DNA of 64,000 nt, taken from Chloroflexi bacterium UBA4730. Lineage in GTDB: Bacteria; Chloroflexota; Limnocylindria; P2-11E. The notes beneath the pieces are model-generated. The model worked only from the letters and a program-made list of their open reading frames with translations, was not told the origin of the DNA and did no database searches. The position numbers and the translations under genes were made by a program. Location: NCBI GenBank assembly GCA_002404155.1, contig DHJC01000081.1:4520-68519 (forward strand), written 5' to 3'. This document shows positions 23,329 to 51,220 of the stretch, piece by piece; the stretch's first letter is position 1, and every line of letters begins with the position of its first letter.

Positions 23329-23401
23329 GGACCCGTGGCTCAGCGGTTAGAGCACTCGGTTCACATCCGAGGGGTCGCTGGTTCGAATCCAGCCGGGTCC
23401 A
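23329..23401 (+). tRNA. tRNA-Val (anticodon CAC)
   Basis: GGACCCG/CGGGTCC acceptor stem, GCTC-AGCGGTTAG-AGC D arm, CTCGG-TTCACAT-CCGAG anticodon arm, GCTGG-TTCGAAT-CCAGC T arm, discriminator A. CCA not encoded. Confidence 0.85.
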
Positions 23402-24760
23402 CGGAAGGTACCCCTCGGCTTGCCGCGTAGCGGCCCTTCCCGTCGCGAGTCGCGGTCAGGTAGGTGCGCACAGTAGGCGCCGCGATCGCTGCGATCATCC
23501 GCCGCAACTCGGGCCGGATGACGAGCTCCATCCCGTCGTCGGCGAACCGGATCTCGGTCACCAGCGCGTCGATGATCGCCCGGCGCGTCTCGCGGGTCAT
23601 GTCGGGCCACGCGTCGACGACCGCCAGGTAGCGTGCGACGTCGCCGACCGTCGCGTTAATTGCCGGTGCCGTCGCGTCGAGAACCGTCCGGGCCTCGCGT
23701 TTCTCGGTCGCGTAGTCGTCGTCGCTCAGGTCCCCGAGGAGGTACAGCCGGCGCGCACGCTCGAGCCGCGCCTCGGCTACGCGACGCCGCCGCGCTCCGT
23801 CGTCGGCCGCTGGCTTCACCCGGACGAACGCGGCAAGGCGCGTCCGACGATCAGCGTCGAGATGCCACGTCCGCAGCCACGCGACGAACTCCGCCTCGAG
23901 GACCGCCTCGCTGCGTTGGAACGGCGTGCCACAGCCCGGGCGCGAATGCAGCAGCCGGTGATCGATGACGCCATCCGGCCGCGCCGAGCGACGACCCCAG
24001 AGCGGCTGCCCACACGTCGCGTGGCGAGCGCGGGACGTGAAGAGGTAGAGCCCGCGCTCGGCAGGCGTGCCGCGGCGGCCGCGGCGCTCGCGGCGCAGGC
24101 GCTGGATCGCGTCCCAGGTCCGTCGGTCGACGAGCGCGGGCGCGATGCCGGTGCGCTCCTCGCCCTTGCGGCGGGTCACGCCGATGGCAATCGGGTTCTT
24201 GAGGACCTCGAAGACGACGGTCGCGTCGAATGGCCGACCGCGCACCCGATGCGACGGATCGCGGCCTCGTCGTCAACGAGCGCGATCGCCGTTGCGGTCG
24301 CGTCCGACCAGCGGTAGCCCCACGGGAGCGTGCCGCCAGGTAGCCCGAGGCGCGCGAACCTCGCGGCGTAGCCGTCGCGGATCCGGTCGGTGAGGTCGCG
24401 CGAGTACTGCGCGTTGAGCACGTGGAGGATGCCCTTCTGCAGCGCGCCGCGGCGATCGTCGGACCAGATGCCCTCGCGGGCGTAATAGATCCGCGCGCCA
24501 GCGGCGCGGAGCGTGGCCTCGTACGTGAACGCGTCGGCTTCGTTGCGGGCGAACCGCGACGTGTCGTACACGACCAGGACGCTGAACCGGTGCTCACGCG
24601 CGTCGGTGACCATCCGCTGGAAGTCCGATCGCTTGAGTGTGCCGGTGCCGGAGATGAGGTCGGAGTACTCGGCGATGATCTCGAGGTGCAGTTCCGTGGC
24701 GGCGCGCGGGGCAGTCCCGGTGCGGCCGCTCTCGGCGTACGCGATCTTATGAGCGCGCCG
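23402..24760 (-). pseudogene. Large serine recombinase (phage/ICE integrase), frameshifted; reads into tRNA-Val 3' end
   Basis: ORF 24176..25102 carries the resolvase catalytic region (VLVVYDTSRFARN). ORF 23361..24245, in another frame, carries the recombinase domain (VVFEVLKNPIAIGV...) and zinc-ribbon region. The frames overlap by about 70 nt, so there is at least one frameshift. The N-terminal Ser-motif region is also degenerate (IAYAESGRTG). Confidence 0.7.
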
Positions 24761-25203
24761 GCCGCCCCGCTTGCTCCCGACCTCGAACAGGCCCTGAAGC
24801 GCCTGAAGCTCCGCGCGGTGCGGCAGCTCGCACCGGAGGTGCTGCAGACGGCGAAGGTCCAGCGCTGGGCTCCGGAGGAGCTGCTGCGTACGCTGGTCGA
24901 GGCCGAGATCGCCGCGCGCGACCAGGCCAACGAGCGGGCCCCGCTGCGCGTCGCGGCCTTCCCGGTGCGCAAGACCCTCGACGAGTTCAAGGTCCAAGAG
25001 AGCGCGGTGCCGCAGCCGACCTTCGCGTATCTCGCCTCGCTCGAGTGGATCCGGGGGGAGGTCGCGCCGCGTACCGCGCTGATCCGCGACCAGCTGCGGC
25101 AACGACCGGTGGCCTGCTCACGACCTCCGCTGCAGCGACGCTCCGCGTGAAGCCCGACCGCTATCCGCCGGACCGGCCGGCCAGGCGCGTCGGGTAGGGC
25201 TAC

Positions 25204-26136
25204 GTGCAGCTCGCTACGTTCGTCGTGCCTACGACGGGGATGGTCGCGACCGGGGCGGTCGAGAGCGGCACCGTCCGTCTCATCGGCCCAGGTTCGCTCG
25301 GTGATCGTCTTCGGGCCCAGCTGGCGCTGAAGCCCGCGCCGGATGCGCCGGTCTACCCACTGAATGCGCTGCGGCTTTTGGCACCCGTGCCGGAACCTCC
25401 CAGCGTGCGCGACTTCTACGCCTTTGAGCAGCACGTCCGTGCCGCTCGCAAGCTACGCGGTCTGGAGATGTCCCCGACTTTCTACGAACTGCCAGTGTTC
25501 TATTTCAGCAATCCGGCAGCGATCTTCGGGCCGGACGCTGTCATCCCTATGGCACCCGGCACCCAGGAACTGGACTTCGAGCTGGAAATCGGACTGGTCA
25601 TCGGACGGGGCGGACGGAACATCCCGGTCGAGCGCGCATGGGAGCACGTGCTCGGCCTGACGATCATGAACGATTGGAGCGCACGCGACCTCCAGCGGCA
25701 GGAGATGAAGCTCAACCTGGGCCCGGCCAAGGGCAAAGACTTCGCCACCTCGATCGGGCCTTGGCTGGTGACACTGGACGAGCTGCGCGATCGGCTGGAG
25801 AAGGACCGTCATGACCTCACAATGGTCGCCCGCGTTAACCGGCGCGAGTTGTCCCGTGGCAACGTCAAGGACGCGTACTGGAGCTTTCCGCAGATGATCG
25901 CGCACGCCTCGCGAGGGGCGACGCTCCGGCCAGGCGACTTGATCGGCAGCGGTACGGTCGGCACGGGCTGCATTCTCGAGCGGCGTCCGGAGAACACGGG
26001 AGGCTGGCTCAAGCCTGGCGACGAGGTCGAGTGCGAGATCGAGCGTCTGGGCATCCTGCGCAACCGCATTGCTGCGCCAGACGAAAGCTATCACCTATTG
26101 CCTGACCCGAATGCACCGGACACGGTCGCCGACTGA
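25204..26136 (+). CDS. Fumarylacetoacetate hydrolase (FAH) family protein
   Basis: 310 aa with FAH-fold motifs (GKDFATSIGPW, metal-binding E/D residues). Confidence 0.85.
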   Translation: MQLATFVVPTTGMVATGAVESGTVRLIGPGSLGDRLRAQLALKPAPDAPVYPLNALRLLAPVPEPPSVRDFYAFEQHVRAARKLRGLEMSPTFYELPVFYFSNPAAIFGPDAVIPMAPGTQELDFELEIGLVIGRGGRNIPVERAWEHVLGLTIMNDWSARDLQRQEMKLNLGPAKGKDFATSIGPWLVTLDELRDRLEKDRHDLTMVARVNRRELSRGNVKDAYWSFPQMIAHASRGATLRPGDLIGSGTVGTGCILERRPENTGGWLKPGDEVECEIERLGILRNRIAAPDESYHLLPDPNAPDTVAD

Positions 26137-26820: not shown

Positions 26821-27414
26821 TCAGCTCAATGTGGGGAGCCAGCTCGATCGTCGCGATTCGTACGCGGCAATCGAGTCGACGTGGGTGAGGCTCAGCTCGA
26901 TCTCGTCCTGTCCGGCGAGCAACCGCGCCTGCCAGGAGTCAGCCAGTGGGAACGGCGCGCTGTACCGAAGCGCGGCGACGGTGACCTCGCGCGCCTCCAC
27001 GCTCACGGAGATTTCGAGGGTCGGGTCGGCCTCGACCGCCGCGAGCAACTGCGCCACGTCCAGCTCCGGCAGCTCGGCGAGCACCAGTCCGATGCCGAGG
27101 CCATTCGAACGGAAGATGTCCGCGAAGCTCGGGGCGATGATCGCGCCGAACCCCCAGTCCGCGAGGGCCCAGGCGGCGTGCTCGCGCGAGCTGCCGCAGC
27201 CGAAGTTCGCTCCGGCGACCAGGATCTTCGCCCCGCGAAAGCGGGCGTCGTTCAGCACGAACGCGGGATCGGCGCGCCACGCCTCGAACAGCCCGGCGCC
27301 GTAGCCGGTGCGTTCGATGCGCTTCAGCCAGTCGCTCGGGATGATCTGATCGGTATCCACGTCGCGCCGATCGAGCGGAAGGGCTCGGCCGGTGACCTGC
27401 CGCACCGGGTTCAC
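26821..27414 (-). CDS. leuD: 3-isopropylmalate dehydratase small subunit
   Basis: 197 aa from [26 protein letters not shown]... GTG at 27414 overlaps the leuC stop (GTGA). Confidence 0.9.
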
Positions 27415-28814
27415 GAGAGGTCCGCCGGCGCCGCGAAGTGACCCGCGATCGCCGTGGCCGCCGCGACCGCCGGCGAGACGAGATGCGTTCGCGCTCCGGG
27501 TCCCTGGCGGCCCTCGAAGTTGCGGTTCGATGTCGACGCGATGCGTTCGCCGGACTTCGCGACGTCGTCGTTCATCCCGAGGCACATCGAACAGCCGGCG
27601 ATGCGCCACTCGAACCCCGCATCGCGAAAGATCCGATCGAGGCCCTCGGCCTCGGCCTGCGCCTTCACCGCCATGGATCCTGGGACCGCGAGCGCGCGGA
27701 TGCCCCGGCGCACGCGCCGGCCACGCAGGACCGCCGCCGCGGCCCGGAAGTCCTCGATCCGGCCGTTCGTGCAGGACCCGAGGAACACCGTATCGACCGC
27801 GATGTCGCGCATCGCGGTCCCCGGCCGCAGATCCATGTACGCGAGCGCCCGCCGTGCACTGTCGCGCGATGCGTCATCCGCGAGGGTCTCGGGATCAGGG
27901 ACGCGATCGTCGATCGCGACGGACTGGGCCGGGTTGGTCCCCCACGTGACATATGGACGCAGGAGCCGCGCGTCGATCCGGACCTCGCGGTCGTACCGGG
28001 CATCGGCATCGGTCGGCAGCCCGCGCCAATGATCGAGCGCCCGCTCCCAGGCTGCGCCCGTCGGTGCGTGCGGGCGGCCCTCCAGGTACGCGAACGTGAC
28101 CGCGTCGGGGGCGATCATGCCGGCACGCGCACCGGCCTCGATGGACATGTTGCAGACGGTCATCCGCCCTTCCATCGAGAGGGCCCGGATCGCCTCGCCC
28201 CCGTACTCGACGAGATGCCCGATCCCGCCGTGCACGCCGATCCGGGCGATGATCCCAAGGATGAGATCCTTCGCCGTCACGTCGGCGGGCGCTGGACCGT
28301 CGAGGCTAACCGCCATCGTCTTCGGCCGCGGCCGCGCGATCGTCTGGGTGGCGAGGACGTGCTCGACGTCGCTCGTGCCGATGCCGAACGCGATCGCACC
28401 AAATGCGCCGTGCGTCGAGGTGTGGCTGTCGCCGCAGACGATGACCATTCCCGGCTGGGTGAGCCCGAGCTGCGGCCCGATGACGTGGACGATGCCCTGA
28501 CCCGGATCGCCCATCGGGAACAGGCGGATGCCGAACGCGGCGCAGTTGTGTGCGAGCGTGGCGATCTGCCGGGCCGAGTCGGGATCGGCGATCGCGCGAT
28601 CCGCCACGGTCGGCGTGTTGTGATCCATCGTCGCGACCGTCAGCTCCGGTCGGCGCACCCGGCGGCCCGCGAGTCGCAGGCCCTCGAACGCCTGCGGTGA
28701 GGTCACCTCGTGCACGAGGTGGAGATCGACGTACAGGAGGTCCGGTCCGCCGGCGGCGCGGTGGACGACGTGCGCCTCCCAGACCTTCTCGGCGAGCGGA
28801 CGGCCGGTCGTCAC
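27411..28814 (-). CDS. leuC: 3-isopropylmalate dehydratase large subunit
   Basis: 467 aa from [15 protein letters not shown]... with aconitase-family motifs ([12 protein letters not shown], Fe-S Cys). GTG at 28814 overlaps the ilvA stop. The 780-aa track ORF is over-extended. Confidence 0.9.
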
Positions 28815-30048
28815 GCGAGCGGCTGCACGTCGAGCAACTGCTCGGCCGGGAAACCCGAGCGGCGCACGAGCGCGAGGACCTCCTCGGCATGCGCGGTATC
28901 GCGGGTGTCCACGATGACGTCGAGGCCGACGCGTCCGAGCGTCGTGTACGGCCCGAGCCGATCGATCCCGACGTGAAGGATGTTGATGTGCTCGCCACCG
29001 AGGATGCCAGTGAGCTCGTGCAGCTGTCCGGGCCGGTCGTCGAGCCACGTCCGGAACGCGAGGTACCGGCCGGCGCTCGCGAGTCCTTGCTGCAGGACCT
29101 TGCCGAGCAGGTTCGGGTCGATGTTGCCTCCACTGACCACGACGCCGAGGCGCTTGCCCGCGAGATCGCCCGGCGCGTCGAGGACCGCGGCCAGGCCCGC
29201 GGCGCCGGCGGCCTCGGCAAGCAGCTTGTGTCGCTCGAGGAGCAGGACGATCGCGCGCGCGATGGCCTCGTCCGTCACGATCCGCATCGTCACGCCGTGG
29301 GCCCGGGCGATCGCTACGGTGCGCGCCGCCGGCTCGCGAACAGCGATGCCGTCCGCGATCGTCGCCGCACCGCCGCGGGTCGGCGAGCCGGTGGCGAGGG
29401 TATCCGCGAACGCGCGAGCGCCGGCGGCTTGCACCCCGATGAGCCGCGCGCCGGACCGGGCCTCTGCGATCGCCAGCGCGGTGCCGGCAAGGAGGCCACC
29501 GCCACCCACCGGCACGACGATCGCGTCGAGGTCGGGAAGGTCCTCGAGCATCTCTCGCGCGACGGTCCCCTGCCCCGCGATCACCGTCGGATCGTCGAAC
29601 GCGTGGATGTAGACCGCGCCACGCTGCGCCGCGAGCTCCCGCGCGGCCGCGAACGCTTCGTCGTAGCCGTCGCCCGTCACGACGACGTCCGCGCCAGCGC
29701 GCTGGATCGCGGTCAGCTTCGCGAGCGGCACGCCGCGCGGAAGGACCACGCACACCCGGATCGCGAGCATCGCCGCGGCCACCGCTACGCCCTGCCCGTG
29801 ATTGCCGGCGGATGCCGTCACCACGCCGCGGGCCCGTTCCACGCCGTCGAGGGCGAGGAGGCGCGCCATCGCGCCACGCAGCTTGAACGCACCGGTCCGC
29901 TGGAGATTCTCGAGCTTGAGGTGGACCTCGCAGCCTGCCAGCGCCGAGAAGTCCGGCGAGTGCACGAACGGCGTCCGCTCGACACGGCCGGCGATCGCCG
30001 CGGCGGCAGCGGCCACGCTGGTCGCGGCAACCGGCGCGGCAGCGACGC

Positions 30049-30052
<4 letters not shown>
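28811..30052 (-). CDS. ilvA: Threonine ammonia-lyase (biosynthetic threonine dehydratase) with C-terminal ACT-like domain
   Basis: 413 aa with the PLP-Lys motif [15 protein letters not shown], a GxGGGG loop and a C-terminal regulatory domain. Confidence 0.9.
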
Positions 30053-33470
<3,418 letters not shown>

Positions 33471-33517
33471 CTAGACGACCGCGCGCAGAGCCGTGTCGAT
33501 GACCCGGACGCGCCGGC

Positions 33518-33712
33518 TCATATCCACATCGGCAGGTCGGAATCAGGGTGGCGGTAGGCCTCGACACAGATCGTCATGAGCTGGATGTCGCTGAGCTCTT
33601 CGGGGACGAAGCCATAGCGCGTGACGAGCGCATGGGCCTGGCCGAGCTGTTCGTCACCGAAGCGCATGCCCAGGCGCGCGAGCCTTTCGCGGAATAGCTC
33701 CTTGAGGTCCAC
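33518..33712 (-). CDS. Hypothetical 64-aa protein between ilvC and leuA
   Basis: GTG start shares one nucleotide with the ilvC TAG stop. GC3-rich codons. No recognisable domain ([46 protein letters not shown]...). Confidence 0.35.
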   Translation of the reverse strand: MDLKELFRERLARLGMRFGDEQLGQAHALVTRYGFVPEELSDIQLMTICVEAYRHPDSDLPMWI

Positions 33713-34761
33713 TACACGACCTCCGCGGGCTCGCGCTGTTGCGTGGCGGCCGCGGCCTCCGGACCGAATTCGCGCTTCGGGAGCCAGGGCATCATCGCTC
33801 GCAGCGAGCGGCCGACACGCTCGATCTGCGAGTCCCGCTCCTTCGCGCGCGTCGCGAGCAGCTCGGGCGCGCCGTTTCGGGCTTCGGCGATCCAGCGCTT
33901 CGCGAAGCTGCCGTCACGGACCTCCGCGAGGATGTCGCGCATCGTCTGACGCACTCGCTCGTCGATGACCCGCTTTCCCGACACGTAGTCCCCGTACTCC
34001 GCCGTGTCGCTCACCGAGTAGCGCATGTACGAGAGCCCGCCTTCATACATCAGGTCGACGATGAGCTTCATCTCGTTCAGGCACTCGAAGTACGCGATCT
34101 CGGGTTGATAGCCGGCGTCGACGAGGGTCTCGAAGCCGGCCTTCACCAGCTCGGAGATGCCGCCGCAGAGCACCGCCTGCTCACCGAACAGGTCCGTCTC
34201 GACCTCCTCGGCGAACGTCGTCTCGATGACGCCCGCCCGCGTCGAGCCGACGGCGCGGGCGTACGCGAGGGCGGTGCGCTTCGCGTGACCGCTGGCGTCC
34301 TGATGCACCGCGACGAGCGCCGGCACGCCCTTGCCTTCGACGAACAGCTCGCGCATCCGGTGCCCCGGGGCCTTCGGCGCGATGAGCACGACGTCGATGT
34401 CCGGTGAGGCCTCGATCTCCTTGAAGTGCACGGAGAACGCGTGCGCGACCACGATCGTCTTGCCGCGGCCGAGCGACGACGCGATGGTCTCGTACACCGC
34501 GCGGTGTTTCGGATCCGGGACGAGGATGACCACGATGTCGGCGTTGCGCGCCGCGTCGGCGACCTCGCGCACATCGAAGCCGTCACGCTCCGCGACCGCC
34601 CAGCTCTTGCTGCCGGCGGCAAGGCCGATCACGACCTCGCACCCGCTGTCGCGAAGGTTCTGGGCGTGGGCGTGGCCTTGGCTCCCGTACCCGATGACCG
34701 CGATGGTCTTTCCCGCGAGCGCTCGGGGGTCCGCGTCGTTGTCGTAGTAGATCGTGGCCAT
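33712..34761 (-). CDS. ilvC: Ketol-acid reductoisomerase
   Basis: 349 aa with the NADP-binding [17 protein letters not shown] motif and class-I KARI length. Confidence 0.95.
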
Positions 34762-34781
34762 CTGCTGCCTCCTCAGTTACT

Positions 34782-35027
34782 TCAGGCTGCGTCGTCGCGC
34801 AGCCGCGCGGTGCGCACATCGACAAGGGTGCTGAACTGCTTGAGCGCAAGCGCCGCTTCCTGCGGCACGGCGCCGGCGCGGATGCGGACCGACCAGCGGC
34901 CATCGCCCGCGATGTCGGCGCAGAAGGACCTGACGCCGAGGCCCCGTCGGCGCACGACCGAGAGGACGCGCTCGATTGCACCCGGGACCGCGTCGACGGT
35001 GAGCTCGAAGGTGTGCTGCGGGTCCAT
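34782..35027 (-). CDS. ilvN: Acetolactate synthase small (regulatory) subunit, short ACT-only form
   Basis: 81 aa from MDPQHTFELTVDAVPGAIERVLSVVRRRG..., an ACT fold. ATG shares one nucleotide with the ilvB TGA. Shorter than the usual ~165-aa IlvN. Confidence 0.65.
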   Translation of the reverse strand: MDPQHTFELTVDAVPGAIERVLSVVRRRGLGVRSFCADIAGDGRWSVRIRAGAVPQEAALALKQFSTLVDVRTARLRDDAA

Positions 35028-36736
35028 CAGCGCGCCGGCTCCTCGATGAGGTCCGCGTTCGCGCCGCCCGGCGGCACGATCGGCCACACATTGGCCTCGC
35101 GCTCGATGCGGATGTCGAGCACCACCGGCCCCGGATGCGCCTTCGCTCGCGAGAGCGCCGGGCCGAGCTCGCTGCGCCGCTCGACGCGAAGACCGAGCAC
35201 GTCGTACGCGTCGGCCAGCTTCACGTAATCCGGGCTGCTGATCGGCGTCTGCGAGATCCGGCCGTCGTGGAAGAGCTGCTGCCACTGGCGGACCATGCCG
35301 AGGTACCCGTTGTTGAGGATCGCGAGCTTCACCGGCGTGCTCTCTTGCACGGCCGTCCCGAGCTCGTGGATCGTCATCTGGGCCCCGCCGTCGCCGGCGA
35401 TCGCCCAGACCTCCGATGACGGGCGACCCAGCTGCGCGCCGATCGCGGCCGGGAGGGCGTAGCCCATGGCCCCGAGGCCGCCGGACGTGAGGAAGCGGTC
35501 GGGGTGCGTGAGCCGGAGATGCTGTGCCGCCCACATTTGGTGCTGGCCGACATCCGCGACGAAATACGCGTCGTCGCTCGCCGTCTCGCGGATGGCGCGC
35601 ACGACGACCCGCGGCGGGAGCTCGACCCGATCCTCGTACGCCGCGAGGCGCGGTCGGGTGCGCTCCGCCGTCGCGCGGGCGCGCCACTCGGGACGGGAGA
35701 CGGGCTCGAGGCGCGCCGCGAGCGCGAACAGCACGGCCGCGGCGTCGGCGACGATGCCGATCGCGGTCGGGACGTTCTTTCCGATCTGGGTCGGGTCGAT
35801 GTCCGCATGGATGATCTGGGCCCCGGCCGCGAAGGCGCTGATCTTCCCGGTCACTCGATCATCGAACCGAAGGCCCACTCCGAGGAGCACATCCGCCTCG
35901 TTCACCATCCGGTTGGCGTTCGCGCTGCCGTGCATCCCAAGCATCCCGGACGCGAGCGGATGATCCTCGGGCAGCGCCCCGATCCCGAGCAGCGTCGTGA
36001 CCACCGGCGCGTCGATCCGTTCGGCGAGGGCCCGGAGCTCGGCGTGCGCTCGGGCGAGCCGGACCCCGTGGCCCGCGACGATCACCGGACGCTTCGCGCG
36101 AGCGAGGAGGGTCGCCGCGCGGTCGAGCTCCCGTGGATCGGCCCCGGACGGAGCCCGAACCTCGGGGGGTGGTGTCGACCGCGCGGCGAGCATGCGGATC
36201 TGGATGTCTTTGGGAATGTCGACGACGACCGGGCCGGGACGGCCCGCGCGGGCGACCGCGAACGCGCGATGGATCGTCGGCTCGATCTCGTCGACGCGGC
36301 GGACGAGATACGAATGCTTCGTGATCGGGCCGGTCAGGCCGATGACGTCGGTCTCCTGGAACGCGTCGCGGCCCATGAGCGGCATGGAGACCTGGCCCGT
36401 GATCGCGACCACAGCAACGCTGTCCATGTACGCGCAGGCGAGTCCCGTGACGAGGTTCGTCGCGCCTGGACCCGAGGTCGCCACGCACACCCCGACGCGC
36501 CCGGTCGCGCGCGCGTAGCCGTCGGCCATGTGGGCGGCGCCCTGCTCGTGTCGGACGAGCACGTGGTGGATGCGCGGGTGATCGGGCAACGCGTCGTAGA
36601 GCGGGAGGCACGCGCCGCCGGGATAGCCGAATACGACATCCGCGCCCGCATACTCCAGCGCGCGCCACACGAGATCGGCGCCGCGGTGTGCGACGGCATC
36701 CGCCTCGGGCATCGCCGTCTTCGCCAGTGTCGCCAT
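35027..36736 (-). CDS. ilvB: Acetolactate synthase large subunit
   Basis: 569 aa, ThDP enzyme with the GDG...NN motif (IAGDGGAQMTIHELGTAVQESTPVKLAILNN) and an FAD-binding middle domain. Confidence 0.9.
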   Translation of the reverse strand: MATLAKTAMPEADAVAHRGADLVWRALEYAGADVVFGYPGGACLPLYDALPDHPRIHHVLVRHEQGAAHMADGYARATGRVGVCVATSGPGATNLVTGLACAYMDSVAVVAITGQVSMPLMGRDAFQETDVIGLTGPITKHSYLVRRVDEIEPTIHRAFAVARAGRPGPVVVDIPKDIQIRMLAARSTPPPEVRAPSGADPRELDRAATLLARAKRPVIVAGHGVRLARAHAELRALAERIDAPVVTTLLGIGALPEDHPLASGMLGMHGSANANRMVNEADVLLGVGLRFDDRVTGKISAFAAGAQIIHADIDPTQIGKNVPTAIGIVADAAAVLFALAARLEPVSRPEWRARATAERTRPRLAAYEDRVELPPRVVVRAIRETASDDAYFVADVGQHQMWAAQHLRLTHPDRFLTSGGLGAMGYALPAAIGAQLGRPSSEVWAIAGDGGAQMTIHELGTAVQESTPVKLAILNNGYLGMVRQWQQLFHDGRISQTPISSPDYVKLADAYDVLGLRVERRSELGPALSRAKAHPGPVVLDIRIEREANVWPIVPPGGANADLIEEPAR

Positions 36737-36764
36737 CGCGGTCGCCTCCTTCTCTCAAGCTGGA

Positions 36765-36800
36765 AATGAAGGAGCCTCCCGTTGCCGGGAGGCCTTCGCT
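36765..36800 (-). terminator. Attenuator terminator hairpin upstream of ilvB (GAAGGCCUCCCGG-CAAC-GGGAGGCUCCUUC + AUUUCC)
   Basis: Perfect 8–12-bp GC-rich stem 30 nt upstream of the ilvB RBS AGAAGGAGG. Its 5' half is complementary to the leader-distal CUGGGAGGC segment. Confidence 0.6.
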
Positions 36801-36823
36801 CGTCAGGTGCGTGGTGTGTGCCG

Positions 36824-36898
36824 CTAGCCTCCCAGCCGTCTCCCGTCGCCCTCAATAAGGACGATGCCGATAAGCGAAACGACGACGAGGCGGCGCAT
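36824..36898 (-). CDS. ilvB attenuator leader peptide MRRLVVVSLIGIVLIEGDGRRLGG (24 aa)
   Basis: ATG at 36898, TAG at 36824. 12 of 24 residues are Val/Leu/Ile. Followed by an antiterminator segment (CUGGGAGGC) and the terminator hairpin. Confidence 0.6.
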   Translation of the reverse strand: MRRLVVVSLIGIVLIEGDGRRLGG

Positions 36899-36987
36899 CT
36901 GAACGGACCATGACGGACGCGCGCAGGCTGCGTCAACGGCCCACCGAAAGTCGGTGCACGTTGCACAGCCATGACGGCCAAGACCGA

Positions 36988-37683
36988 TCACGACGCGAGC
37001 TGGTCGAGAGCGGTCTGGCCCAACACGGCGAGGTACAGCGTCATGCGCTGGTCGGCGTCCTCGAGGTCAGCGCCCGTGAGCTCGCCGATCCGCTTCAGGC
37101 GCTGTCGCACGGTGTTCCGGTGCAGGAACAGCGCCCGGGCCACGCCGTTCACGCTGCCGTGGGCGCGCAGGAACTCCTCCAGGGTGCGCAGCTCGTCGCG
37201 CTGCGCGCGTTCGGCGAGCGGGCCGAGGATCGCTTTACAGAAGCTGCGGATCTCTTCTGTCGGCCGGCCGAGCACGAAGCAGTACGGGCCAAGGTCGCCG
37301 AACGCGGTGATGCGGCCATGGCCATACAGCGCGCGGCCCAGTCGTACCGCCTGTTCCGCATGCAGCGCCACGAGGCGCAGCGGGTGCTGGCGGTCGCGCG
37401 GTCCGCCAACCCCCACGGACAGCGTCGTGTCGCCGAGGCGCTCGCCGACCGTGGTTCGCAGCGCCTCGGCCGCGACGCGGGGATCGCTTTCCGCGGAGAG
37501 CCGCTGGACCGCGATGATCGTCGGGCCGCGCGTGCCGATGAGCCGGGCGTCCGGCGGGAGCGCAGCAAGGACCGCACGTTGCAGCAGGCGCATGCCGCTC
37601 GACGGCGCGCCCTGGAACGCCAGCGCGTACGTCCGCGATGCCGCGGTCTCCAGCGGCGTCGCTCGCTCCGGCCGCGGGTCCAT
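36988..37683 (-). CDS. PucR/CdaR-family transcriptional regulator (C-terminal PucR HTH)
   Basis: 231 aa with the C-terminal LRTLEEFLRAHGSVNGVARALFLHRNTVRQRLKRIGELTG motif. Confidence 0.75.
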   Translation of the reverse strand: MDPRPERATPLETAASRTYALAFQGAPSSGMRLLQRAVLAALPPDARLIGTRGPTIIAVQRLSAESDPRVAAEALRTTVGERLGDTTLSVGVGGPRDRQHPLRLVALHAEQAVRLGRALYGHGRITAFGDLGPYCFVLGRPTEEIRSFCKAILGPLAERAQRDELRTLEEFLRAHGSVNGVARALFLHRNTVRQRLKRIGELTGADLEDADQRMTLYLAVLGQTALDQLAS

Positions 37684-37707
37684 CGCCGCGCTCCTTTCTC
37701 CGCCTGG

Positions 37708-37740
37708 AAACGAAAAGACCTCCCGTTCCTGGGAGGTCCT
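37708..37740 (-). terminator. Attenuator terminator hairpin upstream of the PucR-family regulator
   Basis: 8-bp GC stem GACCUCCC/GGGAGGUC followed by a U-rich tract. Leader-distal GCUGGGAGG can pair with its 5' half as an antiterminator. Confidence 0.55.
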
Positions 37741-37766
37741 CTGCGGTGTCGGTCTCGGTGGTCGCG

Positions 37767-37853
37767 CTACGCGGTGTTGGCGTTCCTCCCAGCATCGTTC
37801 AAGCCCCCGATAAGGAGCTCAATCACGATGATGTGAAGGACGACGGACCGCAT
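37767..37853 (-). CDS. Second BCAA-rich leader peptide MRSVVLHIIVIELLIGGLNDAGRNANTA (28 aa) upstream of the PucR regulator
   Basis: ATG at 37853, TAG at 37767. Run of VVLHIIVIELLI. Downstream terminator GACCUCCCAGGAACGGGAGGUC + UUUUCGUUUCC at ~37708–37740. Near-duplicate of the ilvB leader region. Confidence 0.6.
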   Translation of the reverse strand: MRSVVLHIIVIELLIGGLNDAGRNANTA

Positions 37854-37938
37854 CGCCAGAACGGTACCACCGCTTGCCTGCTCGGCCAAGCCTCGATCCA
37901 CGACGCGGTCCGGGATCGATACCCGACCGGGGGCGGCG

Positions 37939-38580
37939 CTAGTAGGTCCGGCCACGCTGCCGCGCGATGTCGAAGCTGGCCGTTCTGGCGACCGCCATGA
38001 CCGCCATGACCCCGGCCTGCACAGGGTCACTGACGATGAGATCCGCCGCCTTCGGCGCCGAACCGGCCATATTCAGGCTCACCACCAGAATGCCGTGCCG
38101 CCGGACCTCTTCGACCGCGGCGGTGATCTCGCCGCCCATCAGCGCGCCCGCGAGCACGAGGGCCACGGCCCGCGGCAGTCGCGCGACCGCGCGGACCGCC
38201 GCCGCGAGGGTCTGCTCCCCCACGATCGGGATCGTGTCGATGCTGATCTTCTCGCCGCGGATGTTGTGGCGGTCGGCCTCCGAGATCGCGCCGAGGGCCA
38301 CCTGGCCGACCTGGGCCCCGCCGCCCACAACGATGATCCGCTTGCCGTAGACCTCGGCCATCGTGGGCACGATCTCGACCTGCGCGAGTACATCGAGTGC
38401 CCGGAGATCGGCGACCAGTCGGTCGATGTCCGCGCCGGACGGTAGGTCGATCTCGACATGGACCCGGGCGCGCTCGCCGCGCTCGGGGATCTCGATCCCG
38501 GTGATGTTCCCGCTGTGGGCAAGGATGACAGTCGTGATCGCGTGGAGCGTGCCCGGCCGGTCCACGCCTTCGCACACGAG
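37939..38580 (-). CDS. ACT-domain protein with C-terminal Rossmann-like (CoA-binding/DRTGG-like) domain
   Basis: N-terminal ACT segment VCEGVDRPGTLHAITTVILAHSGNITGIEI...; C-terminal RIIVVGGGAQVGQVALGAI... Start taken as GTG at 38580; upstream ORF part is Arg-rich artefact. Confidence 0.55.
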   Translation of the reverse strand, partial: LVCEGVDRPGTLHAITTVILAHSGNITGIEIPERGERARVHVEIDLPSGADIDRLVADLRALDVLAQVEIVPTMAEVYGKRIIVVGGGAQVGQVALGAISEADRHNIRGEKISIDTIPIVGEQTLAAAVRAVARLPRAVALVLAGALMGGEITAAVEEVRRHGILVVSLNMAGSAPKAADLIVSDPVQAGVMAVMAVARTASFDIARQRGRTY

Positions 38581-38759
38581 CGCGACGCAGCTCGGCGCGG
38601 TGGCGCCGGGTCGCTCAGCCTGCGGCAATCGACGTAGTAAGCACCTCGACACCGGCCGTCGCAAGCCCCGTGCACGGTGCACACCGCGACGATGGACCCG
38701 GGGCCGAGGATCGTCGATGACGCGCGTTGGGCACGTGCTCCCATCGATAGACTCGACGC

Positions 38760-39578
38760 GTGCCCATCTGCGCGATCCTCTTCGACCTCGACAACACCCT
38801 GCTGCTCGAGGACGAGGCGACGGAGGACGCACTCCGACAGACGTGCGCGCTCGCGGCACGGCGGGCCGGCGTCGACGCGCGGCCCGTCCAGGTAGCGGCA
38901 CAGGAGGCCGCGGACGCGCTGTTCCGCGCTTCGCCGACCTTCGCCTACGCCGACGCGATGGGAATCTGGTGGGGCGAAGCCCTCTGGGGCGATTTTGCCG
39001 GCGACCAGAAGGGCCTCGTCGCGCTGCGAGCCTTCGTACCCGGCTTCCGCCGCGAGGTCTGGAGCCGCGCGCTCTCAGCCGCGGCCGTCACCGACGAAGC
39101 GCTCGTCGACGAGCTGGCGGCGGCGTACCCCGCCTTGCGCCGCGCGCTCCGCCCGATCGACCCCGAGGCGGACGCCACGCTCGACGACCTCGGCCGCGAT
39201 CACCGGCTCGCACTGGTGACCAACGGCGCGCCCGACCTACAGCGCGAAAAGCTCGCAGGGACCACGCTCGCCGGGCACTTCGCCGCGATCGTAATCTCGG
39301 CCGAGGTCGGCGCCGGGAAGCCCGACCCGCGGATCTTCCGTGCCGCGCTGGATGCGCTCGACGTCGCGAGCACGGATGCGGTGATGGTCGGCGACAGCCT
39401 GGAGCGAGACATCGCCGGTGCCCGGCGCGCGGGGCTGCGCAGCGTCTGGCTCGACCGCGCGGGCGGCGGCGCGAGCGGCGGCCCGGTCGTCCCTGACGCC
39501 CGGATCCAAACGCTCGGCGAGCTGCGCACATCGTTGATCGGCCTCGAGCGCGTCGACGCGTTCCCGCAGCCGGCGTGA
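38760..39578 (+). CDS. HAD-superfamily hydrolase (subfamily IA)
   Basis: Motif I AILFDLDNTLL, motif II LVTNG, motif III K...GDS.ERDI. Confidence 0.8.
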   Translation: MPICAILFDLDNTLLLEDEATEDALRQTCALAARRAGVDARPVQVAAQEAADALFRASPTFAYADAMGIWWGEALWGDFAGDQKGLVALRAFVPGFRREVWSRALSAAAVTDEALVDELAAAYPALRRALRPIDPEADATLDDLGRDHRLALVTNGAPDLQREKLAGTTLAGHFAAIVISAEVGAGKPDPRIFRAALDALDVASTDAVMVGDSLERDIAGARRAGLRSVWLDRAGGGASGGPVVPDARIQTLGELRTSLIGLERVDAFPQPA

Positions 39579-40771
39579 AGGGCGCGCTGCCGCGCGGCTT
39601 CCGCGACATCCTGCCCACCGAAGCACGTGAGCTCCAGGCGATCGAGCGCACGCTCATGAGCGCCTTCGCGCAGTACGGGTACGTGCCGTTGGAGCCGCCG
39701 ACCGTGGAGTTCGCAGAGAGCGCGGTCACGGTCGACGAGCGGCGGACGCTGCGGTTCCTCGATCGGGACGGCCGGCTCCTCGCCCTCCGCCCGGACGTGA
39801 CGACTGCGGTGGCGCGGGTGGTCGCGCAGCGCTACCGGCAGGCCGACGCCACGCTGCGGCTCGCGTACTTCGCGCCGATCTTCCGTGAAGAGGCCTCGAT
39901 GCGCGGATCCGAACGCGAGTACGACCAGGCGGGCGTCGAGCTCATCGGCGACCCAACGCTGCGCGCGGATGCCGAGGTGATCGCGCTCCTCGCCGACGCG
40001 CTCGCGCGGTGCGGGCTGCTCGCGGCGGACATCGACATCGGCCACGTCGGCTTCGTCGATGGCTTCATCGCGGAGCTGCCGGCCGACGCGCGCGATGCGG
40101 CCGGCGCCGCCGCGCGTTCGGGCGACCTGGTCGGCACCGTCTCGCTCGCGCGCGCCGCCGGGATGAGAGCGGTCCGGATCGCGGCGCTCGAGCGCGGCCT
40201 CCGGCATCGCTCGACCGATCTCGCCGCTCTCCGCGCCGACGCGCCCGCCGCGTCGCAGCGCGCCCTGGACACGCTCGATACGCTCCGGCCGCTCCTCGAG
40301 GCGGCCGGCGTCGGCGGGGCCATCCGGTTCGATCTCGGATTCATCCCGGCGCTCCCCTATTACACCGGCGTCGTGTTCCAGGTCACCGTCCCGGATCTCG
40401 GATTCCCCATCGCCACCGGCGGACGGTACGACGGGCTCCTCGCCCGGTTCGGCGCCGATCGCGCGGCCACCGGCTTCGGTATCGCGGTCCCGCATCTGCA
40501 CCAGGCCCTCGTGACGGCCGGTTGGCAGGCGCCGGCGGGATCGCCACTGCTCGTGCTCGCGCCGGATGACGGCGACGATGCGGCCACCCTCAGCGTCGCC
40601 GCGGCCCTGCGCGCCGCGGGGATCGCGGTCGCGATCGGGGACGTCGCCGAGAGCGCGGGGCAGGACGTCCGCCGCGCGCGGGTGATCGACGAGGCGCACC
40701 TCGAATACGAAGGCGTCGTGCGCGCGCTCGACGCGGTCATCGCAGTATTGACCGCTGGCGAGCCCCGGTGA
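39575..40771 (+). CDS. hisZ: ATP phosphoribosyltransferase regulatory subunit HisZ
   Basis: 398 aa HisRS-like catalytic core without an anticodon-binding domain (LPRGFRDILP..., motif 2/3 remnants). 4-nt overlap with short-form hisG. Confidence 0.85.
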   Translation: MKGALPRGFRDILPTEARELQAIERTLMSAFAQYGYVPLEPPTVEFAESAVTVDERRTLRFLDRDGRLLALRPDVTTAVARVVAQRYRQADATLRLAYFAPIFREEASMRGSEREYDQAGVELIGDPTLRADAEVIALLADALARCGLLAADIDIGHVGFVDGFIAELPADARDAAGAAARSGDLVGTVSLARAAGMRAVRIAALERGLRHRSTDLAALRADAPAASQRALDTLDTLRPLLEAAGVGGAIRFDLGFIPALPYYTGVVFQVTVPDLGFPIATGGRYDGLLARFGADRAATGFGIAVPHLHQALVTAGWQAPAGSPLLVLAPDDGDDAATLSVAAALRAAGIAVAIGDVAESAGQDVRRARVIDEAHLEYEGVVRALDAVIAVLTAGEPR

Positions 40772-42659: not shown

Positions 42660-42677
42660 CGATCATCGCCGCAGCGC

Positions 42678-44380: not shown

Positions 44381-44383
44381 GGG

Positions 44384-46394: not shown

Positions 46395-46545
46395 CCGGAT
46401 CGCCGCGCGTCGTGAAACTCGGCATCCTCGGCGGCGACGGAATCGGTCCGAGGTCGTCGAGGCGGCAGTGGTGGTGCTCGAATCCGCTGCGCCTCGGCCA
46501 GCAGGACGCGCGGCTCAACGGTGTCGTACGAGCGCTCTGATATAA
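46391..46545 (+). pseudogene. 3-isopropylmalate dehydrogenase (leuB-family) 5' fragment, frameshifted and truncated
   Basis: ATG overlaps the hisIE stop (ATGA). MTGSPRVVKLGILGGDGIGP then a 1-nt frameshift to EVVEAAVVVLESAA; homology ends ~46490. The IS21 end lies immediately downstream. Confidence 0.6.
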
Positions 46546-48169: not shown

Positions 48170-48178
48170 TGGGCGTCG

Positions 48179-49501: not shown

Positions 49502-49507
49502 GCGCCG

Positions 49508-51140: not shown

Positions 51141-51220
51141 GCATTCCTCCTAGGCCGGCGCTTGCTCAACACAGGATATCGCCGCGCCTCGCCCTCCTAC
51201 CTCCGACTTGGCTCTACGCG

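What the first reader, a model, noticed from the sequence alone, without database searches (positions are those of the whole stretch)
23329..25102. tRNA-Val(CAC) with an adjacent frameshifted large serine recombinase whose reading frame runs into the tRNA 3' end
Integrase-next-to-tRNA is the hallmark of an integrated element. Here the recombinase is split across two frames that overlap by ~70 nt (a frameshift between the catalytic and recombinase domains), and its N-terminal Ser region is degenerate, so the element looks fossilised. The 24-nt tRNA 3' segment cgaatccagccgggtccacggaag is repeated at 50001–50024 and, with one deletion, at 61059–61081. Each copy is preceded by a related ~70-nt arm (a partial copy of which is also at 51221–51288), typical of attR/attP remnants. 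The repeats would bracket 26–38 kb that include the ilv/leu/his operons. A mobile island carrying those would be extraordinary. Serial integrations followed by decay and rearrangement is the more likely explanation.
Basis: seen in the sequence. Interest (0 to 1): 0.6.

Follow-up and report, generated by a model that had tools for sequence, protein, structure and literature searches.

The report
Decayed serine-integrase prophage remnants at tRNA-Val
A tRNA-Val gene in a soil Chloroflexota (Limnocylindria) genome carries the wreck of a mobile element whose serine integrase gene is built to read across its own attachment site; the repeated "tRNA end + arm" pieces further along are the detached tail ends of several such integrase genes, and the amino-acid operons lying between them are ordinary host DNA caught up in later rearrangements.

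Summary
tRNA-Val(CAC) lies at 23329-23402. A large serine recombinase (LSR) pseudogene at 23361-24745 (minus strand) reads into it. The 24-nt tRNA end recurs exactly at 50001-50024 and, with one deletion, at 61059-61081. Each copy follows a related arm, and a third arm lies at 51213-51290.

Intact homologues (~505 aa, 62-71% identical) have two kinds of C-terminus. Those next to a tRNA end in tRNA-antisense residues (..GPGWIRTSDPSDVNRVL*). Those on contigs without a tRNA read through the same core into ..VDxLTAAEHxRWLExxA*, the peptide the arms encode. So the LSR gene spans attP. Integration detaches its last ~25 codons to the far end of the element, and the arms are those detached ends. One complete 11-kb element (L007) shows this layout. 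attP sites are palindromic around a CC in the tRNA T-stem.

The window holds one dead attL and at least three more LSR 3' ends, among IS21, another IS fragment, a group II intron fragment and toxin-antitoxin genes.

The ilv/leu/his block is host core DNA. Its codon usage matches the host, its right edge is a gene cut by IS21, and a 96.6%-identical strain has a different junction there.

Verdict: an ordinary fossil of a rarely described kind, a tRNA-targeting LSR whose gene spans attP.

The parts
23329..23402 (+). tRNA-Val(CAC), intact. Its last ~17 nt (from the CC of the T stem) plus the trailer CGGAAG are predicted to come from the element (attL).
   Evidence: ARAGORN; Rfam 70.9 bits. The same tRNA follows DUF4446 in 8 Limnocylindria relatives.
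23384..23407 (+). 24-nt core shared with copy A and, with 1 nt less, copy C. It contains the predicted crossover dinucleotide CC at 23389-23390.
   Evidence: Dyad-symmetry centre of the family's attP sites.
23361..24745 (-). Large serine recombinase pseudogene. Degenerate catalytic N-terminus, ~24-codon deletion with frame change at ~24251, probable 1-nt indel at 23408-23418, C-terminus read from tRNA antisense.
   Evidence: Pfam Resolvase 2.7e-17 and Recombinase 1.4e-4. 62-71% identity to intact 502-521 aa homologues.
24749..25060 (+). IstB (IS21-family helper) N-terminal fragment that replaces the recombinase start and promoter.
   Evidence: Pfam IstB_IS21 positions 2-90 of 238, E 1.3e-10. 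Only 28% identical to the istB at 46.8 kb.
25204..26136 (+). FAA-hydrolase gene with atypical composition; probably cargo or a relocated gene.
   Evidence: GC 0.652 and GC3 0.79, against 0.71 and 0.86-0.90 for the host core. Homologues at 99% and 86%, then 63%. The 86% relative shares only the gene itself, with different flanks.
26821..46395 (.). Host core block: leuD, leuC, ilvD, leuA, ilvC, ilvB, PucR, HAD, hisZGDC..HA, hisIE. Not part of the element.
   Evidence: Pfam. Codon-usage distance to the left core 0.007. HisIE has a dense series of homologues at 84-97% identity. The his-Iso_dh-panC order is conserved in relatives L056/L057, with no tRNA-Val within 10 kb and no recombinase among the called genes.
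46396..46540 (+). Truncated and frameshifted isopropylmalate/isocitrate-dehydrogenase-like gene start; a rearrangement breakpoint.
   Evidence: Read from the sequence. The full 355-aa Iso_dh follows hisIE in L056.
46596..47961 (-). IS21-family remnant: right end with the repeated ggcggccgaaaagtgacccaccc, an intact istB, and only the C-terminal part of istA.
   Evidence: Pfam IstB 7e-76 and Mu-transpos_C_2 6.9e-18. The break with strain L054 falls exactly at 46595/46596.
47962..49786 (-). Mobile debris: a relE-like gene (assigned by reading the translation; no family search) with a phd antitoxin gene, a group II intron fragment (48654-48788), and two genes of unknown function.
   Evidence: Pfam PhdYeFM. 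Rfam RF02003 91.6 bits. GC3 0.795.
49925..50000 (-). Arm A: the last 24 codons plus stop of an LSR gene (..VSATRLRVDALTAAEHRHWLEASA*).
   Evidence: tblastn with P0001 and P0006 tails, E 5e-5. Frame and codon analysis.
50001..50090 (-). Core A (50001-50024) followed by a possible remnant of the preceding LSR tail (..RFAS..LSCSD-FRGPGWIR). Read as an attP-like hybrid junction of a tandem array.
   Evidence: Exact 24-mer. In-frame read-through. The upstream similarity is weak (P0007, E 0.55).
51213..51290 (-). Arm B: LSR tail codons (..RLRVDALTAAEHRHWLE) with the stop lost and no tRNA core, fused to the 3' end of the PHP/CehA-like gene 51261-52640.
   Evidence: 88% identity to arm A over 66 nt, with 7 synonymous and 0 non-synonymous differences. 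tblastn E 0.025.
60479..60640 (-). C-terminal fragment of an rve-type (DDE) transposase, assigned by reading the motif (..YNAERPHIALGG..); the Pfam attempt failed on stop codons. It sits at the second breakpoint against strain L054.
   Evidence: Translation. Junction comparison.
60977..61058 (-). Arm C: LSR tail codons (..AVVDELSAAEHARWLEVSA*).
   Evidence: tblastn E 0.004-0.007. Codon analysis.
61059..61123 (+). Core C (61059-81, 1-nt deletion) and a 25-nt tandem duplication cacggaagttagggcaacgtcccat (61074-98 and 61099-123).

Best explanation
What it is. The locus is the decayed left junction (attL) of a temperate-phage or plasmid-like integrative element that uses a large serine recombinase (LSR) specific for the 3' part of tRNA-Val(CAC).

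How the family works.
- The LSR gene spans attP. The last ~35-40 codons run through a 15-24 bp copy of the tRNA 3' end and on into a tail ending ..VDxLTAAEHxRWLExxA*.
- attP is an imperfect palindrome centred on a CC, the first two bases of the 3' strand of the T stem (TTCGAAT|CC|AGC).
- Recombination with the tRNA at that CC rebuilds an intact tRNA from element DNA.
- It leaves the LSR gene ending in tRNA-antisense codons at attL.
- It carries the last ~25 codons (the 'arm') plus the displaced tRNA end to the other end of the element (attR). Excision would restore the full-length gene.

What is in this window.
- The attL-side LSR is dead.
- Arms A, B and C come from at least three further LSR genes of the same family. 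They are most likely left by repeated (tandem) integrations at this tRNA.
- Deletions followed, together with IS21, a second IS and a group II intron, and at least one recent inversion.
- The ilv/leu/his operons are host core genes that ended up between att remnants through these rearrangements. They are not cargo.

Shown: the two C-terminal isoforms, attP-form and integrated-form loci, one complete element with attL and attR, purifying selection on the arm peptide, attP dyad symmetry, the core nature of the his block, and the strain polymorphism.

Inferred: the exact crossover base, the tandem order of events, and any functional effect of the tail swap.
For: 1. Two C-terminal forms among intact homologues. 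P0002-4, 7, 8, 11 and 13 end ..WIRTSD(P/L)xDVNR(V/A)(L/H)*. P0001 and P0006 end ..LTAAEHARWLEA(T/I)A*, and P0009 and P0016 end with related tails.

2. Context matches the form. L001, L002 and L058 (attP form) have no tRNA. L003, L007 and L042-L047 have the LSR 3' end overlapping tRNA-Val(CAC). L004 and L005 overlap tRNA-Leu(TAG). The distant L059 overlaps tRNA-Val(TAC).

3. Complete element L007. A 15-nt direct repeat lies at 546 and 11583. The copy at 546 is followed by codons for SVANTTVLRVDSMTAALCASWSVAI*, which resembles the attP-form tail of P0009. The element is ~11 kb.

4. The arms behave as coding sequence. Differences fall 72/25/22 on codon positions 3/1/2. A vs B has 7 synonymous and 0 non-synonymous changes. 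Spacer length compensates for the two reading frames used through the core.

5. The AlphaFold2 model of P0001 predicts the tail as a strand (487-491) plus a helix (493-506) at pLDDT ~87, after a disordered core-encoded linker. The fold matches SPbeta, PhiC31 and Bxb1 integrases.

6. attP dyad symmetry is centred on the same CC: 16/20 in L007 and 14/20 in L058 (0 of 300 shuffles reach this), 13/20 in L002.

7. L047 shows a similar decayed array of three tail-core copies at a tRNA-Val.

8. Element type. L058 has a terminase and a DNA methyltransferase, L042 a Replic_Relax protein, L003 a primase/helicase.

9. Host nature of the block and rearrangement.
Against: - No attR with a demonstrably native flank is present in the window, so the order and number of integrations are inferred.
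- Copy B lacks the tRNA core. Its junction with the CehA-like gene does not fit a clean crossover at CC.
- The similarity of the flanks right of cores A and C to LSR tails is weak (E 0.55).
- The native gene order downstream of tRNA-Val in this species is unknown. Each of five relatives has different genes there.
- The inversion relative to strain L054 rests on 100 nt of contig beyond the junction.
- Nothing about recombination activity or the role of the tail has been tested.
Confidence: 0.8

Rival explanations
1. One large island (26.6 kb to copy A, or 37.7 kb to copy C), bounded by attL and attR, is or was mobile and carries the ilv/leu/his operons as cargo.
For: attL, A and C are direct repeats in the same orientation, and the operons lie physically between them.
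Against: - The block has host codon usage (distance 0.007).
- HisIE has hundreds of homologues at 84-97% identity. The his-Iso_dh-panC order is conserved in relatives, with no tRNA-Val within 10 kb and no recombinase among the called genes.
- The block ends in a gene truncated by IS21 on one side, and in an IS21 fragment with tRNA debris on the other.
- A 96.6%-identical strain joins 46595 to 60478 in inverted orientation.
- Intact relatives are ~11 kb (L007), or belong to a ~30-kb phage-like contig (L058) carrying phage or plasmid genes.
Confidence: 0.03
2. Copies A, B and C do not come from tandem integration at this tRNA-Val. They come from elements integrated elsewhere (secondary sites such as the 3' end of the CehA-like gene, or unintegrated copies nested in other mobile DNA) and were brought near by IS-mediated rearrangement.
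For: - B is fused to a non-tRNA sequence.
- A and B lie in a segment that is inverted between strains.
- A and C read as continuous tail-core-arm, i.e. an attP-like configuration.
Against: - Cores A and C carry the full tRNA-Val 3' end. Tandem arrays generate exactly such attP-like hybrid junctions.
- L047 shows the same pattern directly at a tRNA-Val.
- Everything lies within 38 kb of the tRNA.
Confidence: 0.15
3. The repeats are native duplicated host sequence (for example relics of duplicated tRNA-Val genes) unrelated to the recombinase.
For: The 24-mer is tRNA sequence. The trailer CGGAAG also follows tRNA-Val in the recombinase-free relatives L011 and L015.
Against: - The arms encode the C-terminal peptide of attP-form LSRs found on unrelated contigs.
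- They show a coding substitution pattern in that frame.
- Relatives have one tRNA-Val at this locus and no arms.
Confidence: 0.01

Closest known systems
[quoted passage not shown] 2011, PMC3218068), and phage phiRSM1 (serine recombinase, tRNA-Ser)
   Same: A serine recombinase integrates into the 3' part of a tRNA gene. The elements are small and plasmid- or phage-like with replication genes (Replic_Relax in L042, primase/helicase in L003). One subfamily here also targets tRNA-Leu (L004, L005).
   Different: The hosts are Chloroflexota (Limnocylindria) and the main target is tRNA-Val(CAC). Whether the Mycobacterium enzymes are homologous, or share the gene-spans-attP layout, was not tested. 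That paper calls serine-recombinase integration into tRNA genes rare.
Phage large serine integrases (PhiC31, Bxb1, SPbeta SprA, A118/LI, TP901-1, phiRv1)
   Same: Resolvase catalytic domain, recombinase domain, Cys/His zinc module and coiled coil, in ~500 aa. The whole-length fold matches (Foldseek E 1e-17 to 1e-15). attP is an imperfect palindrome around a central dinucleotide.
   Different: Only 13-17% identity over the Foldseek alignments. The target is a tRNA gene. attP and attB share 15-24 bp rather than a few bp. attP lies inside the integrase's own 3' coding region, so integration changes the protein's C-terminus. There are no close relatives in 50,697 deposited phage records or in PLSDB.
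tRNA-targeting genomic islands and prophages with tyrosine integrases (P4-like, pSAM2/SLP1-type AICEs)
   Same: The integrase gene sits next to the tRNA. The element supplies a copy of the tRNA 3' end so the gene stays intact. A displaced tRNA 3' fragment marks the far end. Tandem accretion and decay occur at tRNA hot spots.
   Different: The enzyme family and chemistry are unrelated. The predicted crossover is at a CC in the T stem within a short palindromic site, not a tyrosine-type site with arm-binding sequences.
Genes that span attP: integration-dependent immunity of mycobacteriophage BPs and relatives (PMC4557955); SSV1-type archaeal integrases (from my own knowledge)
   Same: attP lies inside a coding region, so integration changes the C-terminus of the encoded protein and excision restores it.
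   Different: In BPs the gene is the repressor and the integrase is a tyrosine recombinase. In SSV1 the split gene is a tyrosine integrase. Here it is a serine integrase that loses a predicted strand-helix tail. No regulatory consequence has been shown.

Membership tests
Large serine recombinase (serine integrase) | N-terminal resolvase-type catalytic domain with the nucleophilic serine (Y-x-R-x-S-T-x-x-Q) | tested here: inconclusive
   The domain is present (Pfam Resolvase 2.7e-17, positions 26-140 of 145). In the window copy the serine motif is degenerate (IAYAESGRTG). Intact homologues have YIRESTVAQ. The family meets the feature; the window copy is a pseudogene.
Large serine recombinase (serine integrase) | Recombinase domain followed by a zinc-ribbon and coiled-coil C-terminal region, ~450-700 aa in total | tested here: met
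   Pfam Recombinase matches in the window copy and in homologues. Conserved C/H residues are present. The AlphaFold2 model of P0001 aligns over 513-585 columns to SPbeta, PhiC31 and Bxb1 integrases (E 1e-17 to 1e-14). Pfam Zn_ribbon_recom itself is not detected in the close family.
Large serine recombinase (serine integrase) | Short attP/attB sites with imperfect dyad symmetry around a non-palindromic central dinucleotide | tested here: met
   attP of L007 (reconstructed) scores 16/20 and attP of L058 scores 14/20, each centred on CC, with 0 of 300 shuffles reaching this. L002 scores 13/20 and L001 12/20 at the same CC. Cleavage at that CC is not demonstrated.
Integrated element at a tRNA gene (genomic island / prophage) | Integrase adjacent to an intact tRNA, with a direct repeat of the tRNA 3' end at the other boundary | tested here: met
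   Window: the 24-nt repeat at 23384 and 50001, and a 23-nt copy at 61059. Complete relative L007: a 15-nt repeat 11 kb apart, with the LSR at the tRNA end.
Integrated element at a tRNA gene (genomic island / prophage) | Sporadic presence: relatives have the same tRNA without the element | tested here: met
   Eight Limnocylindria relatives have DUF4446 followed by tRNA-Val. In the five with 2-9.5 kb of sequence downstream of the tRNA, no LSR was found (tblastn). Three have an encoded CCA end instead of CGGAAG.
   Codon usage equals the host core. HisIE shows a dense series of homologues at 84-97% identity. The his operon sits in a different, recombinase-free context in relatives. The junction is polymorphic in a close strain.
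AICE (actinomycete integrative and conjugative element) | Integration module plus replication module plus an FtsK/TraB-type transfer gene | tested here: inconclusive
   Replication-type genes are found next to LSRs in L042 and L003. No FtsK/TraB-like gene was identified. L058 is phage-like instead, with a terminase. The hosts are not actinomycetes.

The most novel reading that the evidence does not exclude
The integration event itself acts as a switch on the integrase. The free element makes a full-length LSR with a conserved, structured C-terminal strand-helix tail (..VDxLTAAEHxRWLE..). The prophage can only make a tail-swapped enzyme ending in tRNA-antisense residues. The swap would change the enzyme's stability, activity or directionality. 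For example, it could stop further attP x attB activity, or alter the coiled-coil control of attL x attR excision. This would be a serine-integrase counterpart of integration-dependent immunity. The layout extends to distantly related tRNA-targeting LSRs: the tRNA-Leu subfamily at 41% identity and a tRNA-Val(TAC) enzyme at ~27%.
Probability: 0.25. Interest if true: 0.7.

Novelty: new variant of a known kind. Interest (0 to 1): 0.42.

Why it matters
For this window, the finding settles a tempting but wrong reading. The branched-chain amino-acid and histidine operons are not travelling on a mobile island. They are core genes stranded between the wreckage of several integrations and IS-driven rearrangements at a tRNA hot spot.

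Beyond the window, the finding exposes a family of serine integrases that breaks two usual rules for such enzymes:
- they target tRNA genes, using 15-24 bp of identity;
- they carry attP inside their own coding sequence, so the enzyme made before integration differs from the one made after.

The literature found here calls serine-recombinase integration into tRNA genes rare. No close relative exists among deposited phages or plasmids.

If the tail swap affects activity or directionality, it would be a new, self-contained control principle for serine integrases, which are widely used as genome-engineering tools. Their tRNA attB sites are also conserved, ready-made landing pads in uncultured Chloroflexota.

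Tried and rejected
1. I first suspected the arm peptide belonged to the CehA/PHP gene family, because arm B overlaps that gene's 3' end. Rejected: the conserved frame is the LSR-tail frame, and P0001 and P0006 carry the peptide.

2. I tested whether the IstB fragment at 24.75 kb and the IS21 at 46.6 kb are the same IS, flanking the block as a composite transposon. Rejected: only 28% protein identity and no DNA similarity.

3. I tested whether the rve fragment at 60479-60640 and the istA C-terminal piece at 47542-47961 are two halves of one istA split by an insertion. Rejected: they overlap in the protein region they cover, and the rve motif is of the IS3/IS481 type.

4. A search of IMG/VR viral contigs with the LSR alignment found nothing. 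The phage and plasmid collections gave only distant hits or none.

5. I looked for attR copies within 10 kb of the LSR in L003, L004, L042, L045 and L046. None was found, so those elements are longer than the fetched flank or decayed.

6. The FAA hydrolase did not work as a synteny anchor, because its relatives have unrelated contexts.

7. A possible repeat links the tRNA-like hairpin at 61143-61185 to 26665-26715. It was seen by eye but is not significant by blastn-short and is left as a note.

8. The origin of copy B remains unresolved. It could be a secondary-site integration or a deletion.
Full report
**Observation**

The window is 70% G+C. It comes from a member of Candidatus Limnocylindria (Chloroflexota). 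The neighbours of the tRNA are pepA, selB, ridA, selA, a diacylglycerol kinase and a DUF4446 gene. They are 74-92% identical in protein, and in the same order, in 11 Limnocylindria or Chloroflexota MAG contigs.

- ARAGORN and Rfam find one intact tRNA, tRNA-Val(CAC), at 23329-23402.
- Directly downstream, on the opposite strand, lie two overlapping ORFs. ORF 23361-24245 matches Pfam Recombinase. ORF 24176-25102 matches Resolvase, but only positions 26-140 of 145.
- The 24-mer cgaatccagccgggtccacggaag (23384-23407) recurs exactly at 50001-50024, with none expected in shuffles. It recurs with one deleted base at 61059-61081.
- The sequences just left of these copies are related. 49938-50003 and 51225-51290 are 88% identical. 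The arm at 60980-61058 is more diverged.

**The key result: the integrase gene spans attP**

A search with the reconstructed recombinase found intact homologues of 502-521 aa at 62-71% identity, and more distant ones down to ~25%. Their alignment shows two kinds of C-terminus.

- *Integrated form.* P0002, 3, 4 and 7 end ..GPGWIRTSDPSDVNRVL*, with variants in P0008, 11 and 13. This is the antisense translation of the tRNA-Val T arm and D arm.
- *attP form.* P0001 and P0006 read through the same tRNA-like core and end ..(I/V)R(I/V)DxLTAAEHARWLEA(T/I)A*. That is the peptide encoded on the minus strand by the three arms of the window:
  - arm A: ..GPGWIRVSATRLRVDALTAAEHRHWLEASA*
  - arm C: ..AVVDELSAAEHARWLEVSA*
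  - arm B..RLRVDALTAAEHRHWLE.., with the stop lost

The contexts agree with the forms.

- The P0001 and P0006 contigs (L001, L002) carry no tRNA. In them the gene runs continuously through ..ttccgtggacccggctggattcgggtcagcgcc...
- Every other member examined has its 3' end overlapping a tRNA on the opposite strand. This is tRNA-Val(CAC) in L003, L007 and L042-L047, and tRNA-Leu(TAG) in the 43%-identical L004/L005. In L059, a ~27%-identical enzyme with a Zn_ribbon_recom domain overlaps tRNA-Val(TAC).
- The tRNA-Leu subfamily also has an attP-form member. P0016 ends ..RDSRPRLRLFVDQDTLAERERWLAWAGAA*. It sits on a 29.7-kb contig of unidirectional small ORFs with a large terminase and a DNA methyltransferase and no tRNA, which looks like a free phage genome.

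So the LSR gene spans attP, and integration moves its last ~25 codons to the far end of the element.

**A complete example**

Locus L007 (GCA_041477805.1) holds an LSR that is 45% identical and reads into tRNA-Val (..GRCWIRTSDLCDVNAAL*). The 15 nt GTGGGCGATGCTGGA of the tRNA end recur 11.05 kb upstream. There they are followed by codons for SVANTTVLRVDSMTAALCASWSVAI*. This resembles the attP-form tail of the related P0009 (..CWNHVSTSVLRVDSATAVLRRTWVAAA*). That is attL plus attR of one intact element, built as predicted.

Locus L047 shows the decayed version. It has a tRNA-Val with an LSR tail remnant and, upstream, two more tail-core-arm copies. One of them is still attached to an LSR body. 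This matches the pattern in the window.

**The arms evolved as coding sequence**

I compared five arms (A, B, C, L001, L002) over 15 aligned codons.

- Differences fall 72, 25 and 22 times on codon positions 3, 1 and 2.
- A and B differ by seven synonymous and no non-synonymous changes.

The family reads the core in two frames (VDPAGF in P0001 and P0006; GPGWIR in the others and in arms A-C). The spacer between the core and the conserved tail differs by one base (15 vs 14 nt), so both frames reach the same tail frame.

The arms therefore come from distinct, once-functional LSR genes. They are not a local duplication of dead DNA.

AlphaFold2 on P0001 gave a mean pLDDT of 79.8 with a 15-sequence alignment. 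It predicts the core-encoded residues 472-484 as disordered. It predicts the tail as a strand (487-491) plus a helix (493-506) with pLDDT ~87. The model aligns over its whole length to SPbeta, PhiC31 and Bxb1 integrases.

**Attachment sites**

The attP sites are imperfect palindromes centred on one CC.

| Site | Dyad matches | Shuffle control |
|---|---|---|
| reconstructed L007 attP | 16/20 | 0 of 300 reach it |
| L058 attP | 14/20 | 0 of 300 reach it |
| L002 attP | 13/20 | p 0.04 |
| L001 attP | 12/20 | not significant (58 of 300 shuffles reach it) |
| window copy A | 11/20 | not significant (113 of 300 shuffles reach it) |

In the tRNA-Val sites that CC is the first two bases of the 3' strand of the T stem (TTCGAAT|CC|AGC). 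I infer it is the crossover dinucleotide. This is not shown.

The identity between attP and the tRNA is 15 bp in L007 and 23-24 bp in the window's subfamily. That is long for a serine integrase.

The trailer CGGAAG after the tRNA differs among relatives. L008, L012 and L013 have an encoded CCA instead. L011 and L015 share CGGAAG without having an LSR. It is either the native trailer of a sub-clade, mimicked by attP, or a scar of earlier integrations.

**State of the window copy**

The attL-side LSR is dead.

- About 24 codons are missing and the frame changes at ~24251.
- The catalytic motif is degenerate.
- A further 1-nt indel near 23408-23418 is needed to join its P0002-like tail (RDGKGRYAASRG) to FRGPGWIRTSDPSDVNRVL*.
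- The start and promoter are replaced by the first ~100 codons of an IS21-family istB.
- The same state is present at 99% identity in an independent ENA contig (L006).

To the right of core A the frame stays open through ..RFASRSDERSVLSCSD-FRGPGWIR. This faintly resembles LSR tails such as ..GRFAKTPRGLSCGPGWIR. Copy A is therefore best read as an attP-like hybrid junction of a tandem array: the arm of a newer element joined to the tail of an older element's LSR.

Copy B has an arm but no tRNA core, and is fused to the 3' end of a PHP/CehA-like gene. Its origin is unresolved.

**Are the operons cargo? No.**

The physical order from left to right is as follows.

| Coordinates | Feature |
|---|---|
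| 23.3-24.7 kb | tRNA-Val and the LSR pseudogene |
| 24.7-25.1 kb | IstB fragment |
| 25.2-26.1 kb | FAA-hydrolase gene |
| 26.6-26.7 kb | tRNA debris |
| 26.8-46.4 kb | leuDC, ilvD, leuA, ilvC, ilvB, PucR, HAD, hisZGDC(B)HA-IE |
| 46.4-46.54 kb | Iso_dh gene cut after ~48 codons |
| 46.6-47.96 kb | IS21 right end, istB, partial istA |
| 47.96-49.8 kb | a relE-like gene and phd, group II intron fragment, two unknown genes |
| 49.9-50.1 kb | copy A |
| 50.1-51.1 kb | PRiA4-ORF3 and HicB-like genes |
| 51.2-51.3 kb | copy B |
| 51.3-60.5 kb | CehA-like gene, ABC transporter, MGH1 hydrolase, DUF4395 |
| 60.48-60.64 kb | rve transposase fragment |
| 60.98-61.12 kb | copy C |

These assignments rest.

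Four lines of evidence make the 26.8-46.4 kb block host core DNA.

1. *Codon usage.* The block is indistinguishable from the left-hand core (Jensen-Shannon distance 0.007, GC3 0.895). The FAA hydrolase (GC 0.652) and the 46-51 kb zone (GC3 0.795) are atypical.
2. *Homologue density.* HisIE has a dense series of homologues at 84-97% identity. The FAA hydrolase drops from 86% to 63%.
3. *Synteny.* In relatives L056/L057 the his operon is followed by a full Iso_dh, then panC and further genes. No tRNA-Val lies within 10 kb and no recombinase is among the called genes.
4. *Strain polymorphism.* Contig L054 is 96.6% identical to 42125-46595. It continues after 46595 with 29 nt and then window 60478 down to 60377 in reverse, at 99% identity. 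The breakpoints fall exactly at the IS21 tip and inside the DUF4395 terminator hairpin, which is intact in L054 and broken in the window. The 13.9-kb segment holding copies A and B therefore has opposite orientation in two close strains.

The bracketing of the operons by direct repeats is a product of rearrangement. What lay downstream of tRNA-Val originally cannot be recovered. Five relatives each have different genes there.

**Comparison with what is known**

- Ghinet et al. (PMC3218068) describe Mycobacterium AICEs whose serine recombinases integrate into a tRNA-Leu gene. [quoted passage not shown]
- Surveys of mycobacterial prophages find tRNA attB sites only for tyrosine integrases, and short common cores for serine integrases (PMC10654092).
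- A coding region that spans attP is known for the repressor of BPs-type mycobacteriophages, as integration-dependent immunity (PMC4557955). From my own knowledge it is also known for SSV1-type tyrosine integrases.
- My literature searches found no description of a serine integrase whose own gene spans attP. The library is incomplete, so this is absence of evidence only.
- No close relative exists in 50,697 phage records or in PLSDB.

**Verdict**

As an object in this genome it is an ordinary fossil. Its value is as the entry point to an uncharacterised family of tRNA-targeting serine integrases whose C-terminus is swapped on integration. I rate interest 0.42, and classify it as a new variant of a known kind.

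Noticed in passing
window 46595/46596 and 60478/60479; L054 4465-4593: A 96.6%-identical strain contig (JGI Ga0683577_0066555) joins the truncated Iso_dh region to the reverse complement of 60478->60377. This implies a ~13.9-kb inversion between close strains. One breakpoint is at the IS21 tip. The other is inside the DUF4395 terminator hairpin (CTGAGGTC-TCCATA-GACCTCAG, intact only in L054).
   Followed up: partly
window 48654-48788 (-): A group II intron D1-D4 fragment (Rfam RF02003, 91.6 bits) with no adjacent reverse-transcriptase ORF noticed. It is another piece of mobile debris.
   Followed up: no
window 61099-61190 (-): The 5' two-thirds of a tRNA-like gene (GCCGAGGTAGCTCAGCTGGTAGAGCAATGGTCTGGCAAACCATTG, anticodon loop CTGGCAA; Rfam 30.5 bits). 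The T arm is replaced by sequence that includes the 25-nt tandem duplication next to copy C. It also forms a 10-bp hairpin (61143-61169).
   Followed up: partly
window 26588-26651 (-) and 26665-26715: A decayed tRNA-Cys(GCA)-like 3' two-thirds (22 bits, below the Rfam threshold) lies between the FAA hydrolase and leuD. Next to it is a stretch resembling the 61143-61185 hairpin (TGGT.TGGCAAACCATT(T)GCTCA..TGACTCA). This may mark another old att or rearrangement site.
   Followed up: partly
window 25204-26136 (+): The FAA-hydrolase gene has atypical composition (GC 0.652). Its 86%-identical relative (L053) shares only the gene itself, with unrelated genes on both sides. It is likely accessory or relocated.
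   Followed up: partly
window 46396-46540 (+): The isopropylmalate/isocitrate-dehydrogenase-like gene that follows hisIE in relatives is reduced here to ~48 frameshifted codons, and also in strain L054. panC-panB, which follow it in L056, are absent from the window.
   Followed up: partly
L006 5916-5936 (same species, ENA contig): In this 99%-identical strain the tRNA-Val T stem carries a compensatory pair change (GTTGG/CCAAC instead of GCTGG/CCAGC). The change also alters the recombinase tail peptide read from it (VDPVGFEPTTPRM).
   Followed up: no
L047 130-330, 5580-5780, 6420-6600: An independent soil contig has a tRNA-Val with an LSR tail remnant plus two further tail-core-arm copies. It is a decayed tandem array like the one in the window.
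   Followed up: yes
L007 546-11597: A complete ~11-kb element of the family carries NhaA-type and Na/Ca-exchanger-type transporter genes and a DUF4259 gene near its attR end, besides about ten ORFs without any family match.
   Followed up: partly
window 30951-30974: A perfect 24-nt palindrome lies inside the ilvD coding region (self-BLAST).
   Followed up: no
window 17685-21770 (-): selB and selA (selenocysteine machinery) lie just upstream of the tRNA-Val locus, but no tRNA-Sec was detected anywhere in the window.
   Followed up: no
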